Positions 46,600-63,572 of a stretch of DNA of 64,000 bases are shown here, piece after piece. Each line of letters begins with the position of its first letter. The first letter of the stretch is position 1. A program made the translations under genes and the position numbers. The DNA comes from Phormidesmis sp. (lineage in GTDB: Bacteria; Cyanobacteriota; Cyanobacteriia; Phormidesmidales; Phormidesmidaceae): NCBI GenBank assembly GCA_045110585.1, contig JBGCGG010000063.1, forward strand, positions 11,732 through 75,731. The letters are read 5' to 3'. The notes under the pieces are model-generated. The model searched no databases. It saw only the letters and a list, made by a program, of their open reading frames with translations, and was not told the DNA's origin.

Positions 46600-47661
46600 T
46601 TAGCGATCGCCATACAGATTTTCGTAATATCCCTTGTACTCTTCAGAGAGGAGTGCTTGCCACCATTCGCGATTGTTTAAGTACCACTCCACCGTTTGTT
46701 TGAGGCCGGTTTCAAAGTTATAAGCTGGTGTCCAACCCAGATCTCGCTCAATTTTGGAAATATCCATTGCGTAACGGCGATCGTGGCCAGGGCGGTCGGT
46801 GACAAATGTAATCAGATCGCGCGGTGCGGTGGGCAAATCACCTGCTAGCTCGCCCATTAAGTCGCAGAGCTGATGCACGATGTCGAGGTTTTTGACCTGA
46901 TTGTTGCCTCCGATGTTGTACACATCGCCAGGGTTGGCCTTTTGTAATACGGTGTCGATTGCGGAGCAGTGATCGCTGACATGCAGCCAGTCACGTACAT
47001 TCTGGCCATCGCCATACACTGGCAAAGGCTTACCCAACAGAATGTTGAGGCACATGAGCGGAATCAATTTTTCGGGGAATTGGTATGGCCCGTAGTTATT
47101 GGAGCAATTGGTGATTAGGGTGGGCATGCCGTAGGTGTGGAAGTAGGCGCGAGCGAGGTGGTCGCTGCCTGCTTTTGAAGCGGAATAGGGGCTGTTGGGT
47201 GCGTAGGGTGTGGTTTCAGTAAAGGCTGGATCGTCTGCTTCTAGGCTGCCGTATACTTCATCGGTAGAGACATGGAGGAAGCGGTAGTCTTCAGGTTTGC
47301 CTTTGTCCTGCCAACGGTTGCGGAAGGCTTCGAGCAGGGTAAAGGTGCCGACGACGTTAGTTTGAACGAAGGCTGCGGGGCCAAGTATGGACCTATCAAC
47401 ATGGGATTCGGCGGCGAAGTGAATCACAGTGTCAATGTCTTCTTCGGCCAGAATGTCAGTGACGAGTTTGCCATCGCAAATGTCACCTTTAATAAGGCGA
47501 AAGCGGTCTTGCTCGATGAGGTCAGAGAGGTTTTCTTTATTTCCTGCGTAGCCAAGAATATCGAGGACAACGACTCGGCCGTCGTGATTTTGGCACCAGT
47601 GGTGTACGAAGTTGGAGCCGATGAACCCGGCCCCGCCGGTAATAAGAACGCGTTTTGACAT
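46600..47661 (-). CDS. rfbB: dTDP-glucose 4,6-dehydratase
   Basis: TGGAGFIG, HFAAESHVDRSI, STDEVYG, YSASK, CSNNYGPYQFPEK, DRPGHDRRY; ATG at 47661. Confidence 0.97.
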   Translation of the reverse strand: MSKRVLITGGAGFIGSNFVHHWCQNHDGRVVVLDILGYAGNKENLSDLIEQDRFRLIKGDICDGKLVTDILAEEDIDTVIHFAAESHVDRSILGPAAFVQTNVVGTFTLLEAFRNRWQDKGKPEDYRFLHVSTDEVYGSLEADDPAFTETTPYAPNSPYSASKAGSDHLARAYFHTYGMPTLITNCSNNYGPYQFPEKLIPLMCLNILLGKPLPVYGDGQNVRDWLHVSDHCSAIDTVLQKANPGDVYNIGGNNQVKNLDIVHQLCDLMGELAGDLPTAPRDLITFVTDRPGHDRRYAMDISKIERDLGWTPAYNFETGLKQTVEWYLNNREWWQALLSEEYKGYYENLYGDR

Positions 47662-47717
47662 GGTTTGTTTGAAGTCTAGGGGAAAGTGATTGTGTTTGGG
47701 GTTGAGCTGGTAAGCTC

Positions 47718-47751
47718 GCCCCGCCCTACCGGGCACCCCGCCAGAGGGGAT
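47718..47751. repeat. Short/truncated copy of the dispersed repeat at 20615
   Basis: gccccgccctaccgggcacccc versus gccccgccctgctgagtacccc. Confidence 0.45.
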
Positions 47752-47960
47752 TTATTTTAGGCAGTGGCGTTGACTGTGATAGCGATTTCTGTACCCTACA
47801 GAAACAAGCTGATATAACTCCTTTGGGCGCTGGGGTGCCTTTGTCTGAAGGTGCGCCACTAGGGAATGCATCTTCAGGCAAAGGCCGTAAGGACTGGCTT
47901 TAACGTTTAGGCCACTTAGTCTGTTGCTAAAAGGTCTGTTGCTAAAAGTCAGTTCAATTG

Positions 47961-60988: not shown

Positions 60989-61127
60989 ATGCAGTAGGGC
61001 TTGGGCTATGGTTTGCCCACAGGTAGAAAACAAAAAGAGTTGATGCAGGACGCGTTTATACGGAAGCGGTGGAGTTGCATGAGGCTTGAGAAAAGCAGCC
61101 TTAATAAGTAGCTTTAAAAAAGGAGCC

Positions 61128-61544
61128 TTAATAAGGTGTCGTCATGCTGTCTTCAGTGGGTGGGGTGCTGGGGATACGATAGGAGGCTTTATCTCGCTCT
61201 AGCTTACGTTGCATGGGGTCTTTGCCGAGTAATCGCATGATCAGAGCCATGGGCGTGAGCACCAGTAAAAAAATGATCCCCAGGATGATGCGGCTGTTGA
61301 GCCAACCCAACACTAAGGCAATGCGCATCCATACGGCATAAAAAGGCGCGAGCGATCGCGGTGCAACTAGCGCCACGCTGCATAATATTCCGCCCGCCAC
61401 GATGGGCCAACGATGAATCCCCGCGCCCCACACAAACGGTAGAACCAGGCCAAATAACACCGCGAAGATGATTCCGGTCGTGAGGCCGAACTTGCGTAGC
61501 CCTTGCTTATCAAGTTTTGGAATCTCAGAGAAATTGATGCCCAT
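61128..61544 (-). CDS. SxtJ-family membrane protein
   Basis: LRKFGL, P..L.PFYAVWMRIA..LGWLNSRIIL..IF..VLTP...G.DPM.R. Confidence 0.88.
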   Translation of the reverse strand: MGINFSEIPKLDKQGLRKFGLTTGIIFAVLFGLVLPFVWGAGIHRWPIVAGGILCSVALVAPRSLAPFYAVWMRIALVLGWLNSRIILGIIFLLVLTPMALIMRLLGKDPMQRKLERDKASYRIPSTPPTEDSMTTPY

Positions 61545-61730
61545 ACGTTCTGTAATCTGCCTGCATATCTTTCATTAATCTGTGTTGGGTTGAGCCACTG
61601 TTAGGCTGAGTGACTGGCTTGAGAACTGGCTTGAGAACTGGCTTGAGTGACTGGCTTGAGTCACCGTGACTCGGCTGCATGAAGTGGTTGGCTGGTCGCT
61701 TGCTTGAAGCGTAGCCTCATGAAGCGTAGC

Positions 61731-63572
61731 TTAATCCAGTTCAAACTCCTCTTTCCACTGCTCGTCAGTTTCTCTCTTGGGCTGCTTCTCTTTTACCAGC
61801 AAACAATTTTCAATGACTAAATAATCCATCTCTGTGCGCATAAAGCATCGGTAGGCATCTTCTGGCGTGCAGACAATGGGTTCACCGCGCACATTAAACG
61901 AGGTATTTACCAGCACTGCGCAGCCTGTTTTGGCCTCAAACTGACGAATCAGCTCGTGGTATCGCGGGTTCGTTTCGGCATGTACCGTCTGAATTCGCGC
62001 CGAGTAATTGACATGGGTCACCGCCGGAATTGTGGAATGGGGCACCTTTAGCTTTTCAATCCCAAAGAGCGCATCTTGCCCGCCGTCTGTTTGTCTCAGG
62101 TCTTTTTGCACGCCTGCGACTAAGGTCATATACGGACTGGTGTGGGTGTCATCCAGCTCAAAATACTGACCAGCGCGCTCTGCGAGCACCGACGGTGCAA
62201 AGGGCCGAAAAGACTCTCGGTACTTGATTTTTAAGTTCATCACCGACTGCATTTTGGGATTGCGCGGATCGCCAATAATTGAGCGACTCCCTAATGCCCT
62301 GGGGCCAAACTCCATTCGCCCCTGAAACCAGCCCACCACATTCCCTTCTGCCAAAATTTCAGCTAAACGCGGCAGCAATGCTTCATCGGGCAGCGCTTCG
62401 TATGGCGCATCTAGCCGGGCTAATCGTTCGGTTACCGATCCACTTTCAAAGCTGGGCCCCAAATAAGCTCCGCTCATGCCGTCCGGTGTTTGTACTTGCC
62501 GCGACTTGTCAAAATGCTGATGCCACAGTGCCAAGGCTGCACCGACGGCTCCGCCTGCATCGCCCGCTGCGGGCTGCACCCAAATTTCTTTAAACGGCCC
62601 TTCCCTCAGTAACCGACCGTTAGAAACACAGTTTAGGGCTACGCCACCAGCTAAACACAGCGTGTCTGTGCCGAGTTCTTCATGGGCTGTGTTGGCTAGC
62701 CGCAATACGACTTCTTCCGTGACTTGCTGAATAGACGCGGCCAAATCCATTTCCCGCTGCGTGATTTTGCTTTCGGGTTGGCGCGGTGGCCCGCCGAAAA
62801 GATCGTGAAAGGCGCGGTTGGTCATGGTGAGGCCCGCTGCGAAGTTAAAGTAGCGCATGTCGAGCTTGAACGTGCCGTCTGCTTTGAGATCGAGCAGATT
62901 ATCTAGGATTAGCTGGGTGTATTTGGGATCGCCGTAGGGGGCAAGGCCCATGAGCTTATACTCGCCTGAGTTCACTCGGAAACCGGTGTAGTAAGTGAAG
63001 GCGGAGTACAGCAGGCCCAGGGAATGGGGAAAGTTGATTTCCCATTTAGAGGTGAGCTGATTGCCTTCGCCGTACCATAAAGATGTGGTTGCCCATTCGC
63101 CGACGGCATCTAGGCAGAGGATGGCGGCGCGCTCGAAGGGGCTGGGAAAGAAGGCCGAGGCGGCATGAGACTGGTGGTGCTCTGAAAAGTGGAGTGGCGG
63201 CAGGGCTTTGATGGTGCAGTTGCCCAGTGTGGCCAGGTCTTTTTTGAGGACGGTTTTGAGGTAGAGCTTTTCTTGTAGCCATGCGGACATGGCGGTGACA
63301 AAGGAGCGAAACCCGCGTGGTGCGTAGGAAAGATAGGTTTCTAGCAGGCGCTCGAAGGTGATCAGTGGCTTTTCGTAAAATACGATGGCATCGACATTTT
63401 CGAGGGCGAGGCCCGCTTCGCTGAGGCAGTAGGCGATCGCTGATTTGGGAAAGCGGGCATCGTGCTTTTTGCGTGAAAAGCGTTCCTCTTGAGCGGCTGC
63501 GACAATATGACCCTCGGTAATGAGGGCCGCAGCGCTGTCATGGAAGTAAGCAGAGATGCCAAGGATGTTCAT
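61731..63572 (-). CDS. O-carbamoyltransferase, NodU/CmcH/TobZ family (SxtI-like)
   Basis: GISAYFHDSAA, EERFSR.KH, HHQSHAAS, DAVGE, EYKLMGLAPYG, GGVALN, GRMEFGPRALG, RESFRPFAP, NTSFNVRGEPIV; ATG at 63572. Confidence 0.93.
   Translation of the reverse strand: MNILGISAYFHDSAAALITEGHIVAAAQEERFSRKKHDARFPKSAIAYCLSEAGLALENVDAIVFYEKPLITFERLLETYLSYAPRGFRSFVTAMSAWLQEKLYLKTVLKKDLATLGNCTIKALPPLHFSEHHQSHAASAFFPSPFERAAILCLDAVGEWATTSLWYGEGNQLTSKWEINFPHSLGLLYSAFTYYTGFRVNSGEYKLMGLAPYGDPKYTQLILDNLLDLKADGTFKLDMRYFNFAAGLTMTNRAFHDLFGGPPRQPESKITQREMDLAASIQQVTEEVVLRLANTAHEELGTDTLCLAGGVALNCVSNGRLLREGPFKEIWVQPAAGDAGGAVGAALALWHQHFDKSRQVQTPDGMSGAYLGPSFESGSVTERLARLDAPYEALPDEALLPRLAEILAEGNVVGWFQGRMEFGPRALGSRSIIGDPRNPKMQSVMNLKIKYRESFRPFAPSVLAERAGQYFELDDTHTSPYMTLVAGVQKDLRQTDGGQDALFGIEKLKVPHSTIPAVTHVNYSARIQTVHAETNPRYHELIRQFEAKTGCAVLVNTSFNVRGEPIVCTPEDAYRCFMRTEMDYLVIENCLLVKEKQPKRETDEQWKEEFELD

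What the first reader, a model, noticed from the sequence alone, without database searches (positions are those of the whole stretch)
46600..63572. Candidate integrated system: a carbamoylated, hydroxylated rhamnose-containing surface glycan with its own remodelling protease
Within 17 kb: dTDP-rhamnose synthesis (rfbCDAB), three GTs of different families, a KdsC-type phosphatase, two 2OG oxygenases, a lectin-protease and the carbamoyltransferase trio. I know of no characterised cyanobacterial polymer combining these modifications. The grouping as one pathway is inference from proximity; the locus may continue past 64 kb.
Basis: inference. Interest (0 to 1): 0.65.

Follow-up and report, generated by a model that had tools for sequence, protein, structure and literature searches.

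The report
Split cyanobacterial Kdo-rhamnose glycan locus
The genes are all there, but they are not one dedicated pathway: the core is one half of a widespread cyanobacterial surface-sugar export system that also uses the sugar Kdo. The protease and the carbamoylation genes are optional neighbours that sit elsewhere in close relatives.

Summary
The locus stops at the carbamoyltransferase and does not run past 64 kb.

Comparison with 150 genomes of the same order splits the 17 kb into separable units:
- **Rhamnose genes:** rfbBADC is near-core, with RfbC in 113 of 151 genomes.
- **Kdo-linked block:** KdsC–GT8–GT2–GT4 is the tail of a conserved operon, wzm–wzt–kdsD–kdsB–kdsA–kdsC–GT8–GT2–GT4. 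That operon is contiguous in Calothrix PCC 7507, in three genomes of two other genera of the same family and, with rfb attached, in two same-genus genomes. In this genome it is split over three contigs.
- **Oxygenase pair:** the two 2OG oxygenases plus KdsC form a 3.06-kb indel relative to one same-genus genome (G079).
- **FG-GAP/metalloprotease-like gene:** it lies beside GT8-family genes in five of eight genomes and far from them in three.
- **Carbamoyltransferase–SxtJ–DUF5989:** this is a self-contained sxtIJK(L)-like cassette, found far from the glycan genes, or without them, in other genomes.

All 13 genomes tested make CMP-Kdo but lack a WaaA-type Kdo transferase.

Verdict: a mosaic surface-glycan neighbourhood, probably an ABC-transporter-exported rhamnose/Kdo polysaccharide. 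Hydroxylation, carbamoylation and proteolytic remodelling remain unproven.

The parts
46600..50765 (-). rfbB, rmlA (long type), rfbD, rfbC: dTDP-L-rhamnose synthesis. It is the only such set in the genome.
   Evidence: Searches give family scores above the cut-offs. One search shows a single copy. One search finds RfbC in 113 of 151 genomes of the order, so this sub-block is near-core.
50766..51268 (.). 0.5-kb gap. G017, G115 and G044 carry an extra gene of 362-397 aa on the opposite strand here, with a GT2-like N-terminal motif.
   Evidence: That protein has no Pfam hit. No remnant was found in the window.
51269..54590 (-). GT4, GT2-like (rhamnosyltransferase-like) and GT8-like glycosyltransferases with overlapping reading frames. 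This triplet is conserved.
   Evidence: The same triplet follows kdsC in Calothrix PCC 7507 and G070, and lies with the kds genes in G059 (GT8-GT2 only in G108). The GT8-like model matches WbbM, GlyE, glycogenin and LgtC. D83-S-D85 is invariant.
54750..55268 (-). KdsC (Kdo-8-phosphate phosphatase), the only copy in the genome.
   Evidence: TIGR01670, 162.6 bits. One search shows a single copy. It co-occurs with true KdsA in 17 of 18 genomes. It lies next to the GT8-like gene in 13 genomes.
55498..57485 (+). 2OG_1 and 2OG_2: two distantly related P4H/Tpa1-fold Fe(II)/2-oxoglutarate oxygenases, transcribed divergently from kdsC.
   Evidence: The H180-x-D182...H245 triad and R259/S261 are conserved. 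The two share 24% identity. Fold matches are Tpa1, OGFOD1, PHD2, PasI and PolD. Window 54590-57646 is a 3.06-kb indel relative to G079.
57660..60191 (-). FG-GAP beta-propeller repeats, a Ser/Asn/Pro-rich linker, a metzincin-like domain (HELGHILG) and two Kre9/KNH Ig-like domains. No obvious signal peptide.
60192..60823. 632-bp gap. The nearest relative (L041) carries a 413-aa distant SxtL/SGNH-like gene at this place.
   Evidence: No remnant was found in the window.
60824..63587 (-). Carbamoyltransferase (NodU/CmcH type), SxtJ (membrane protein) and DUF5989 (SxtK-like): an sxtI-J-K-like cassette.
   Evidence: The cassette is conserved with an SGNH/AlgX-like gene in G017 and G115. The order matches sxtI-J-K-L (PMC2679770, PMC2684587).

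Best explanation
The 17 kb is a mosaic at the edge of a fragmented surface-polysaccharide locus. It is not one self-contained pathway.

**Functional core.** The core is rfbBADC + GT4-GT2-GT8 + KdsC. It is the distal half of a conserved cyanobacterial ABC-transporter-dependent (Wzm/Wzt) glycan system that carries its own CMP-Kdo pathway. The ancestral order is seen intact in same-genus genomes G044 and G035: GT4 // GT-like - unknown - wzm - wzt(+CBM) - kdsD - kdsB - kdsA - GT8 paralogue - GT - (2OG_2) - 2OG_1 // kdsC - GT8 - GT2 - GT4 - rfbCDAB.

**State in this genome.** The other parts lie on two further contigs.
- C36: WaaL-like gene, WbaP-like primer transferase, GT4, wzm, wzt and kdsDBA.
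- C21: SxtL-like SGNH gene, a GT, and the GT8 paralogue.

**Inferred mechanism.**
- A lipid-linked rhamnose/hexose polymer is built in the cytoplasm.
- It carries Kdo somewhere other than the lipid A core, since there is no WaaA. Kdo could be a cap or a linker.
- It is exported by Wzm/Wzt, whose C-terminal carbohydrate-binding module would recognise the finished chain.
- It is probably ligated to lipid A-core.

**Accessory parts.**
- The two P4H-fold 2OG oxygenases are an optional cassette of this glycan system. They most likely oxidise a sugar residue or its precursor.
- The sxtIJK-like carbamoyl cassette and the FG-GAP/metalloprotease-like protein are accessory genes. They are juxtaposed only in this lineage and one close relative.
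- Their action on this glycan is possible but not shown.
For: **Shown: synteny of the core.**
- The order rfbB-rmlA-rfbD-rfbC-GT4-GT2-GT8-KdsC//2OG_1-2OG_2 is kept in G115, G017, G014 and G035, and in G044 without 2OG_2. G008 and G130 keep parts of it.
- wzm-wzt-kdsD-B-A-C-GT8-GT2-GT4 is contiguous in Calothrix PCC 7507 and G070. The same genes are clustered in G059 and G108.
- G044 and G035 hold the whole set, including rfb, on one stretch.

**Shown: Kdo pathway.**
- This genome has one KdsC, which is here.
- KdsA, KdsB, KdsD, Wzm, Wzt(+Wzt_C), a Bac_transf gene and a Wzy_C gene are on C36.
- KdsA and KdsC co-occur in 17 of 18 genomes.
- WaaA (PF04413) is absent from this genome and from 12 Kdo-positive relatives, while control genomes ring.

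**Shown: oxygenases.**
- Five of six sampled contexts of distant 2OG_1 homologues are polysaccharide loci, and two of them carry rml genes.
- One distant genome clusters a GT8 paralogue, 2OG_1, wzm, wzt, a KpsS/C-like gene, the GT-like gene and the unknown gene.
- A 2OG_2 homologue sits next to kdsD in G124.

**Shown: independence of the accessory parts.**
- Carbamoyltransferase orthologues lie at G017:C6 and G115:C8:766 kb, against glycan blocks at G017:C1:185 kb and G115:C8:193 kb.
- They are present in G022, G056 and G122 without 2OG_1, GT8-like or true KdsA.
- They are absent from G008, G014, G035, G044 and G130.
- In other cyanobacteria the cassette sits in non-glycan contexts.
- The protease lies elsewhere in G008, G014, G058, G017 and G115.
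Against: - No chemistry or expression data exist. Only DNA metagenome runs hold this sequence.
- The Kdo transferase is not identified. The GT8-like protein has a UDP-sugar GT-A fold, not a known Kdo-transferase fold. A KpsS/C-like gene lies in a second wzm/wzt locus on C181, so Kdo might serve that system instead.
- The Wzy_C protein could be a polymerase or a protein O-oligosaccharyltransferase rather than WaaL.
- The protease neighbours GT8-family genes in five of eight genomes: the window, L041, G079, G115 and G017.
- The SxtL-like gene abuts glycan GTs on C21.
- The two points above mean 'independent' may understate a real functional tie.
- Co-occurrence statistics are confounded by shared ancestry within one genus.
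Confidence: 0.66

Rival explanations
1. All 14 genes form one integrated pathway that makes a carbamoylated, hydroxylated, rhamnose-containing surface glycan. The FG-GAP metalloprotease remodels or processes it.
For: - The same full arrangement occurs in a second, closely related scaffold, L041 (carbamoyltransferase 93% identical).
- In G079 the protease is directly upstream of GT8-GT2-GT4-rfb on the same strand.
- In G115 and G017 the protease lies next to the GT8 paralogue and its GT partner.
- The SxtL-like gene lies next to those GTs in this genome.
- In G014, G058 and G008 the protease sits beside the same flanking gene as the carbamoyl cassette does in G017 and G115.
Against: - The carbamoyl cassette and the glycan block are unlinked in G017 and G115, and each occurs without the other.
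- The cassette sits among unrelated genes in other cyanobacteria.
- The protease is unlinked to glycan genes in G008, G014 and G058.
- A protease acts on peptides, not glycans, and its zinc motif is atypical.
- The 17 kb has no export, priming or ligation genes.
Confidence: 0.15
2. A protein-glycosylation system. The GTs build a rhamnose-containing oligosaccharide on a lipid carrier. The Wzy_C-domain protein transfers it onto secreted proteins, the way PglL-type enzymes do. The Ser/Thr/Pro-rich linker of the adjacent FG-GAP protein would be one target. The P4H-fold oxygenases would hydroxylate prolines in such linkers.
For: - The best fold matches of 2OG_1 are protein prolyl hydroxylases: Tpa1, OGFOD1 and PHD2.
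- The FG-GAP protein has a PESTPTDN-repeat linker.
- It recurs beside GT8-family genes.
- The Wzy_C domain is shared by WaaL and O-oligosaccharyltransferases (the sharing is established knowledge).
Against: - 2OG_1 homologues sit in classic polysaccharide loci with Wzx, Wza/Wzc or Wzm/Wzt genes and no such protein.
- The core operon in Calothrix, G070 and G059 has no FG-GAP protein.
- The Wzt C-terminal domain points to polymer export.
Confidence: 0.08
3. Pure island effect. The genes are neighbours only because this is a recombination-prone region that collects accessory cell-surface genes. Even the 2OG pair has no role in the glycan.
For: - The flank beyond 2OG_2 differs in every relative examined.
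- The slot next to the C128:9899-10387 homologue holds different cargo in different genomes.
- 2OG_1 is patchy, in 21 of 151 genomes.
Against: - The KdsC//2OG_1 divergent pair is kept in seven same-genus genomes.
- 2OG_1 recurs in glycan loci of unrelated bacteria.
- A 2OG_2 homologue lies beside kdsD in G124.
Confidence: 0.1

Closest known systems
ABC-transporter-dependent O-polysaccharide systems with a capped chain (Klebsiella pneumoniae O12 WbbB and O4 ORF7; PMC11231755)
   Same: - Wzm plus Wzt with a C-terminal carbohydrate-binding domain.
- All glycosyltransferases are cytoplasmic.
- CMP-Kdo is used outside the lipid A core; O12 also contains rhamnose.
- The top fold match of the GT8-like protein is WbbM, a polymerase of such a pathway.
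   Different: - No GT99- or GT137-type Kdo transferase and no coiled-coil terminator was identified here.
- The kdsD, kdsB, kdsA and kdsC genes are inside the locus itself.
- The locus is split over three contigs.
- 2OG oxygenases are not part of the Klebsiella systems.
Cyanobacterial KpsM/T + KpsF/U (+KpsS/C) clusters noted bioinformatically, for example Synechocystis slr2107-slr2122 (Pereira et al. 2015, PMC4594306)
   Same: A patchy, confined distribution of Kdo-pathway genes linked to ABC-transporter genes in cyanobacteria. Here true KdsA occurs in 18 of 151 genomes and KdsC in about 20 of 151.
   Different: That study did not describe the conserved kdsC-GT8-GT2-GT4 tail, the link to rfb, or the 2OG pair. 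Function is untested in both cases.
sxtI-sxtJ-sxtK-sxtL of saxitoxin gene clusters (PMC2679770, PMC2684587, PMC2885083)
   Same: The same three families in the same order and with similar sizes: 612, 134 and 54 aa there; 613-618, 138 and 54-69 aa here. In relatives the cassette has an adjacent GDSL/SGNH gene of about 415-460 aa, compared with SxtL at 426 aa.
   Different: - No other sxt gene families are present among the ORFs scanned between window 39155 and the contig end.
- The SGNH gene is not adjacent in this genome.
- The cassette is widespread and 72-76% identical across many non-toxic cyanobacterial genera.
- Its native substrate is unknown.
KdoO, the Fe(II)/2OG Kdo 3-hydroxylase of Burkholderia and Yersinia LPS (from my own knowledge)
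   Same: It is a 2OG oxygenase acting on an LPS sugar. Here the 2OG genes are transcribed divergently from kdsC, and in G124 a homologue lies next to kdsD.
   Different: No match to the KdoO Pfam family even at E <= 10. The fold class is P4H/Tpa1-like. Homologues also occur in glycan loci without Kdo genes.
PolD and PasI, P4H-fold 2OG enzymes acting on eight-carbon sugar-acid nucleoside phosphates (PDB 9BLQ, 9EI6, 9EI7)
   Same: They are among the best sequence and fold matches of 2OG_1 and 2OG_2. They show that this fold can oxidise high-carbon sugar acids.
   Different: Identity is only 16-20%. Those enzymes belong to nucleoside-antibiotic pathways, not polysaccharide pathways.

Membership tests
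dTDP-L-rhamnose pathway (RmlA/B/C/D) | All four enzymes present and above family cut-offs | tested here: met
   TIGR01181 at 519 bits (cut-off 365) and TIGR01208 at 502 bits (cut-off 320). PF04321 at 358 bits and PF00908 at 238 bits.
ABC-transporter-dependent (Wzm/Wzt) polysaccharide pathway | Wzm permease plus Wzt ATPase genetically linked to the GT genes | tested here: met
   They are not in the window. They lie on C36 in this genome. They are contiguous with the GT8-GT2-GT4/KdsC block in Calothrix PCC 7507 and G070, on the same stretch in G044, G035 and G108.
ABC-transporter-dependent (Wzm/Wzt) polysaccharide pathway | Chain terminator or cap recognised by the Wzt C-terminal module | tested here: inconclusive
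   The Wzt_C domain is present (E = 1.8e-10). No terminator enzyme was identified. The candidate unknown ORFs gave no PDB sequence hits.
ABC-transporter-dependent (Wzm/Wzt) polysaccharide pathway | The product is a surface polymer ligated to lipid A-core or another lipid | not testable with these tools
   This needs LPS or EPS chemistry.
CMP-Kdo biosynthesis (KdsD, KdsA, KdsC, KdsB) | All four steps encoded | tested here: met
   KdsC is in the window. KdsA matches TIGR01362 at 414.7 bits, above its cut-off. KdsD (SIS+CBS) and KdsB (CTP_transf_3) are.
Lipid A-core Kdo (WaaA-dependent) | GT30 Kdo transferase WaaA (PF04413) | tested here: not met
   No hit in this genome (98% complete) or in 12 Kdo-positive relatives. 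E. coli, Caulobacter and Bacteroides controls ring.
GT8 retaining glycosyltransferases | GT-A fold with a DxD motif, similar to LgtC and glycogenin | tested here: met
   The model has pLDDT 90.5. Foldseek matches WbbM, GlyE, glycogenin and LgtC at E of about 1e-7 to 1e-5. D83-S-D85 is invariant in 36 homologues. The Pfam hit itself is weak (26.9 bits).
Fe(II)/2OG oxygenases, P4H/Tpa1-like | HxD...H iron triad, basic 2OG-binding residue, double-stranded beta-helix fold | tested here: met
   H180, D182, H245, R259 and S261 are conserved. The model has pLDDT 82 and matches Tpa1, OGFOD1 and PHD2. 2OG_2 aligns with the same motifs.
KdoO (Kdo 3-hydroxylase) | Match to the KdoO family profile | tested here: not met
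   No hit for either oxygenase at E <= 10.
NodU/CmcH-type O-carbamoyltransferase | Carbam_trans_N plus Carbam_trans_C domains | tested here: met
   422 and 252 bits. The NodU equivalog cut-off is not reached (143 bits against 1000), so it is not NodU itself.
Saxitoxin (sxt) gene cluster | Core sxt genes (sxtA polyketide-like synthase, sxtG amidinotransferase and others) beside sxtI-J-K | tested here: not met
   Only the I-J-K-like trio is present. No other sxt-type family appears among the ORFs scanned from window 39155 to the contig end.
Metzincin / M10 metalloprotease | HExxHxxGxxH zinc motif | tested here: inconclusive
   The sequence reads HELGHILGISS, so the third His is missing. Pfam M10 gives 26 bits over 50 residues. 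NF038122 gives 37.9 bits against a cut-off of 80.

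The most novel reading that the evidence does not exclude
Cyanobacteria of this group make CMP-Kdo but have no WaaA. They would use Kdo as a cap, linker or repeat residue of a Wzm/Wzt-exported rhamnose glycan. The widespread, uncharacterised P4H/Tpa1-fold oxygenases (2OG_1 and 2OG_2) would be sugar hydroxylases of such glycans, for example making a Ko-like residue or another oxidised sugar. That would define a new enzyme class for polysaccharide decoration. In some strains the sxtIJK(L)-like cassette would add a carbamoyl group to the same polymer, which would reveal the ancestral job of the genes recruited for saxitoxin.
Probability: 0.2. Interest if true: 0.65.

Novelty: new variant of a known kind. 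Interest (0 to 1): 0.42.

Why it matters
- **A testable system.** It turns a vague 'glycan island' into a defined one: a conserved cyanobacterial operon, wzm-wzt-kdsDBAC-GT8-GT2-GT4, in organisms whose LPS core is said to lack Kdo (PMC4390846) and which lack WaaA.
- **Open questions it raises.** Where does Kdo go in cyanobacterial surface polymers? Which enzyme transfers it?
- **Uncharacterised enzyme families.** The 2OG oxygenase family has more than 5,000 homologues and is recurrently embedded in polysaccharide loci, with no known substrate. The sxtIJK(L)-like cassette also has no known native function.
- **Ecology.** Surface glycans govern phage and grazer susceptibility, so variable cassettes such as these are likely serotype determinants.

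Tried and rejected
- **Co-expression.** It could not be tested. Only DNA metagenome contigs hold this sequence and no RNA run was found.
- **Promoter and terminator scan.** Counts were at chance level and uninformative.
- **Locus continuing past 64 kb.** Rejected.
- **The 2OG enzymes as KdoO.** Rejected at family level.
- **The GT8-like protein as the missing Kdo transferase.** This was suggested by its tight linkage to kdsC and kdsA. It is disfavoured because its fold is the UDP-sugar GT8 type. A weak sub-threshold Capsule_synth hit inside it (E = 0.08) was dismissed.
- **PDB sequence searches.** The three unknown ORFs next to wzm and the GT8 paralogue gave nothing.
- **Remnants of missing genes.** None were found in the two intergenic gaps.
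- **Literature searches.** Searches for carbamoylated O-antigens and for 2OG oxygenases in O-antigen clusters found nothing relevant.
- **Related loci.** The search for related loci returned only four loci. Synteny therefore came from the genome search and the fetch from genomes.
- **Fisher tests of co-occurrence.** They look strong but are not independent of phylogeny, so they are not used as proof.
- **Earlier-findings search by words.** It returned nothing.

Full report
**1. Observation**

The window is G000:C63:11732-75731, and the contig is 84.8 kb long.
- rfbB, long-type rmlA, rfbD and rfbC, all above curated cut-offs.
- A GT4, a GT2-like and a GT8-like glycosyltransferase with overlapping frames.
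- A KdsC-type HAD phosphatase (TIGR01670, 162.6 bits against a cut-off of 107).
- Two 2OG-FeII_Oxy_3 oxygenases on the opposite strand.
- An 843-aa protein with FG-GAP repeats, a short M10-like metalloprotease match and two Kre9/KNH Ig-like domains.
- The trio of carbamoyltransferase, SxtJ and DUF5989.

Beyond 63587 the contig carries DnaJ-TPR, an unknown protein, IF3 and an acyltransferase. The locus therefore ends at the carbamoyltransferase.

**2. Is it one system? Neighbourhood test in 150 genomes of the same order**

The relatives are Phormidesmis-like.

*Oxygenases and the glycan block.*
- 2OG_1 is patchy, present in 21 of 151 genomes.
- Seven same-genus genomes have an orthologue at 67-82% identity.
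- In four of them (G115, G017, G014, G035) the order rfbB-rmlA-rfbD-rfbC-GT4-GT2-GT8-KdsC//2OG_1-2OG_2 is kept. G044 keeps it without 2OG_2.
- G008 and G130 carry reduced versions.
- None of the seven has the protease or the carbamoyl trio within 10 kb.

*Carbamoyltransferase.*
- G017 carries it on another contig.
- G115 carries it 573 kb from the glycan block.
- G022, G056 and G122, of another genus, have it but lack 2OG_1, the GT8-like gene and true KdsA.
- It is absent from G008, G014, G035, G044 and G130.
- In G017 and G115 it forms a compact unit: an SGNH/AlgX-like gene of 415-461 aa, then the carbamoyltransferase, SxtJ and DUF5989.
- This mirrors sxtI-J-K-L of saxitoxin clusters, where sxtL is a 426-aa GDSL lipase (PMC2679770, PMC2684587).
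- The carbamoyltransferase is 72-76% identical across many cyanobacterial genera.
- In two sampled genomes it sits among unrelated genes.

*Nearest relative.* Only one scaffold, L041 (carbamoyltransferase 93% identical), shares the window's arrangement. It has an extra 413-aa distant SxtL-like gene where the window has a 632-bp gap.

**3. The protease**

Orthologues occur in seven of the 151 genomes. Their positions are mixed.
- G079: the gene is directly upstream of GT8-GT2-GT4-rfbCDAB, on the same strand.
- G115 and G017: it lies next to a GT8 paralogue and its GT partner.
- G014, G058 and G008: it sits beside the homologue of C128:9899-10387. That is the same flanking gene beside which the carbamoyl cassette sits in G017 and G115.

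A DNA alignment of the window with G079 is colinear on both sides of window 54590-57646. KdsC+2OG_1+2OG_2 is therefore a discrete 3.06-kb indel between the GT8-like gene and the protease.

The protease is thus loosely but recurrently linked to GT8-family genes. Nothing shows that it remodels a glycan, and its zinc motif (HELGHILGISS) lacks the third metzincin histidine.

**4. What the core belongs to**

*Kdo pathway in this genome.*
- There is a single KdsC, the one in the window.
- True KdsA is on C36.
- C36 carries a WaaL-like (Wzy_C) gene, a WbaP-like primer transferase and a GT4.
- Divergent from those, it carries a GT-like gene, an unknown gene, wzm, wzt (with Wzt_C), kdsD, kdsB and kdsA.

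*Distribution across the order.*
- True KdsA is in 18 genomes and KdsC in about 20; 17 genomes have both.
- RfbC is in 113.
- The GT8-like gene is in 14-15 genomes, all with at least one Kdo-pathway gene, and lies next to KdsC in 13.

*Conserved operon.*
- wzm-wzt-(tailoring genes)-kdsD-kdsB-kdsA-kdsC-(methyltransferase)-GT8-GT2-GT4 is one tightly packed same-strand string in Calothrix sp. PCC 7507.
- The same set is clustered in G070, G059 and G108.
- G044 and G035 hold one stretch of about 28 kb that joins the C36-type genes, the C21-type GT and GT8 paralogue, the 2OG gene(s), KdsC-GT8-GT2-GT4 and rfbCDAB.

The window therefore holds the distal half of a conserved Wzm/Wzt + Kdo glycan locus. 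In this genome that locus has been broken into three pieces.

*No WaaA.* WaaA (PF04413) is absent from this genome and from 12 Kdo-positive relatives, while controls ring. This fits reports that cyanobacterial LPS cores lack Kdo (PMC4390846) and the confined distribution of KpsF/U/S/C homologues (PMC4594306). Kdo is thus probably used elsewhere in a polymer, as in the Kdo-capped Klebsiella O4 and O12 antigens, whose Wzt modules read the cap (PMC11231755).

*The transferase is unidentified.* The GT8-like protein models confidently as a GT8/GT-A enzyme, with WbbM, GlyE, glycogenin and LgtC as matches. A KpsS/C-like gene sits in a second wzm/wzt locus on C181.

**5. The oxygenases**

- Both keep the iron triad and the 2OG-binding residues. 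They are only 24% identical to each other.
- The family is large, with more than 5,000 homologues.
- Five of six sampled distant contexts are polysaccharide loci, and two of those carry rml genes.
- One distant genome clusters a GT8 paralogue, 2OG_1, wzm, wzt, a methyltransferase, a KpsS/C-like gene, the GT-like gene and the unknown gene.
- In G124 a 2OG_2 homologue lies beside kdsD.
- The fold is P4H/Tpa1-like. Matches include PolD and PasI, which act on eight-carbon sugar acids.
- There is no KdoO family match.

Sugar oxidation is the best inference. The substrate is unknown.

**6. Verdict**

- The rhamnose genes, the GTs, KdsC and probably the 2OG genes work in one glycan pathway.
- That pathway is a variant of the known ABC-transporter-dependent type, and its other half lies on other contigs.
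- The carbamoyl cassette and the protease are separable accessory genes, juxtaposed only in this lineage.
- Their action on the glycan is possible but unproven.
- Novelty: a new variant of a known kind, of moderate interest.

Noticed in passing
window 53397-53453 (inside the GT2-like gene, minus strand): Three overlapping copies of a 15-nt unit encode the TSNTP/TSDTP repeats of the N-terminal extension of the GT2-like protein. Relatives align only from about residue 85-103, so this low-complexity head varies in length.
   Followed up: partly
G000 contig C181:10562-17760 (locus L065): A second ABC-transporter glycan locus: a GH-like gene, wzm, wzt(+Wzt_C), a 191-aa unknown, a methyltransferase, a KpsS/C-like Capsule_synth protein (442 aa) and two GT2 genes. 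The run wzm-wzt-191 aa-methyltransferase-Capsule_synth has the same order as in the distant locus L034. It is a candidate alternative user of CMP-Kdo.
   Followed up: partly
Homologues of G000 C128:9782-9899 in G017, G115, G014, G058 and G008 (L023, L024, L046, L047, L050): The place beside the C128:9899-10387 homologue holds different cargo in different genomes. G017 and G115 carry the SxtL-like gene plus the carbamoyl cassette there. G014, G058 and G008 carry the FG-GAP/metalloprotease-like gene there. In this genome the two flanking genes lie about 117 bp apart. It looks like a recombination hot spot.
   Followed up: partly
L006 (a Methylococcales MAG contig, 10001-10741): A 2OG_1 homologue with 64% identity lies in a gammaproteobacterial bin, with no other glycan-block genes in the 10 kb upstream. 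This could be horizontal transfer or mis-binning.
   Followed up: no
L058 (G007:C241:3599-5567): The GT2-like and GT4 orthologues each align as two pieces, so they may be frameshifted. This genome also lacks the 2OG pair and shows only a KdsA fragment at the contig edge. The locus may be decaying, or these may be assembly errors.
   Followed up: no
window 44924-46408 and 43750-44532: An Ala/Gln-rich 494-aa protein with no Pfam match, and an OmpR-type response regulator. One or both flank rfbB in G079, G115, G017 and G007, so the left border of the locus is stable while the right border is not.
   Followed up: partly
G000 contig C21:12402-19818 (locus L037): The gene order is: SxtL-like SGNH gene, GT-like gene (403 aa), GT8 paralogue, a 774-aa acidic repeat protein, and a CsaB-type polysaccharide pyruvyl transferase. 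In G115 the same string ends with the FG-GAP protein instead of the SGNH gene.
   Followed up: partly
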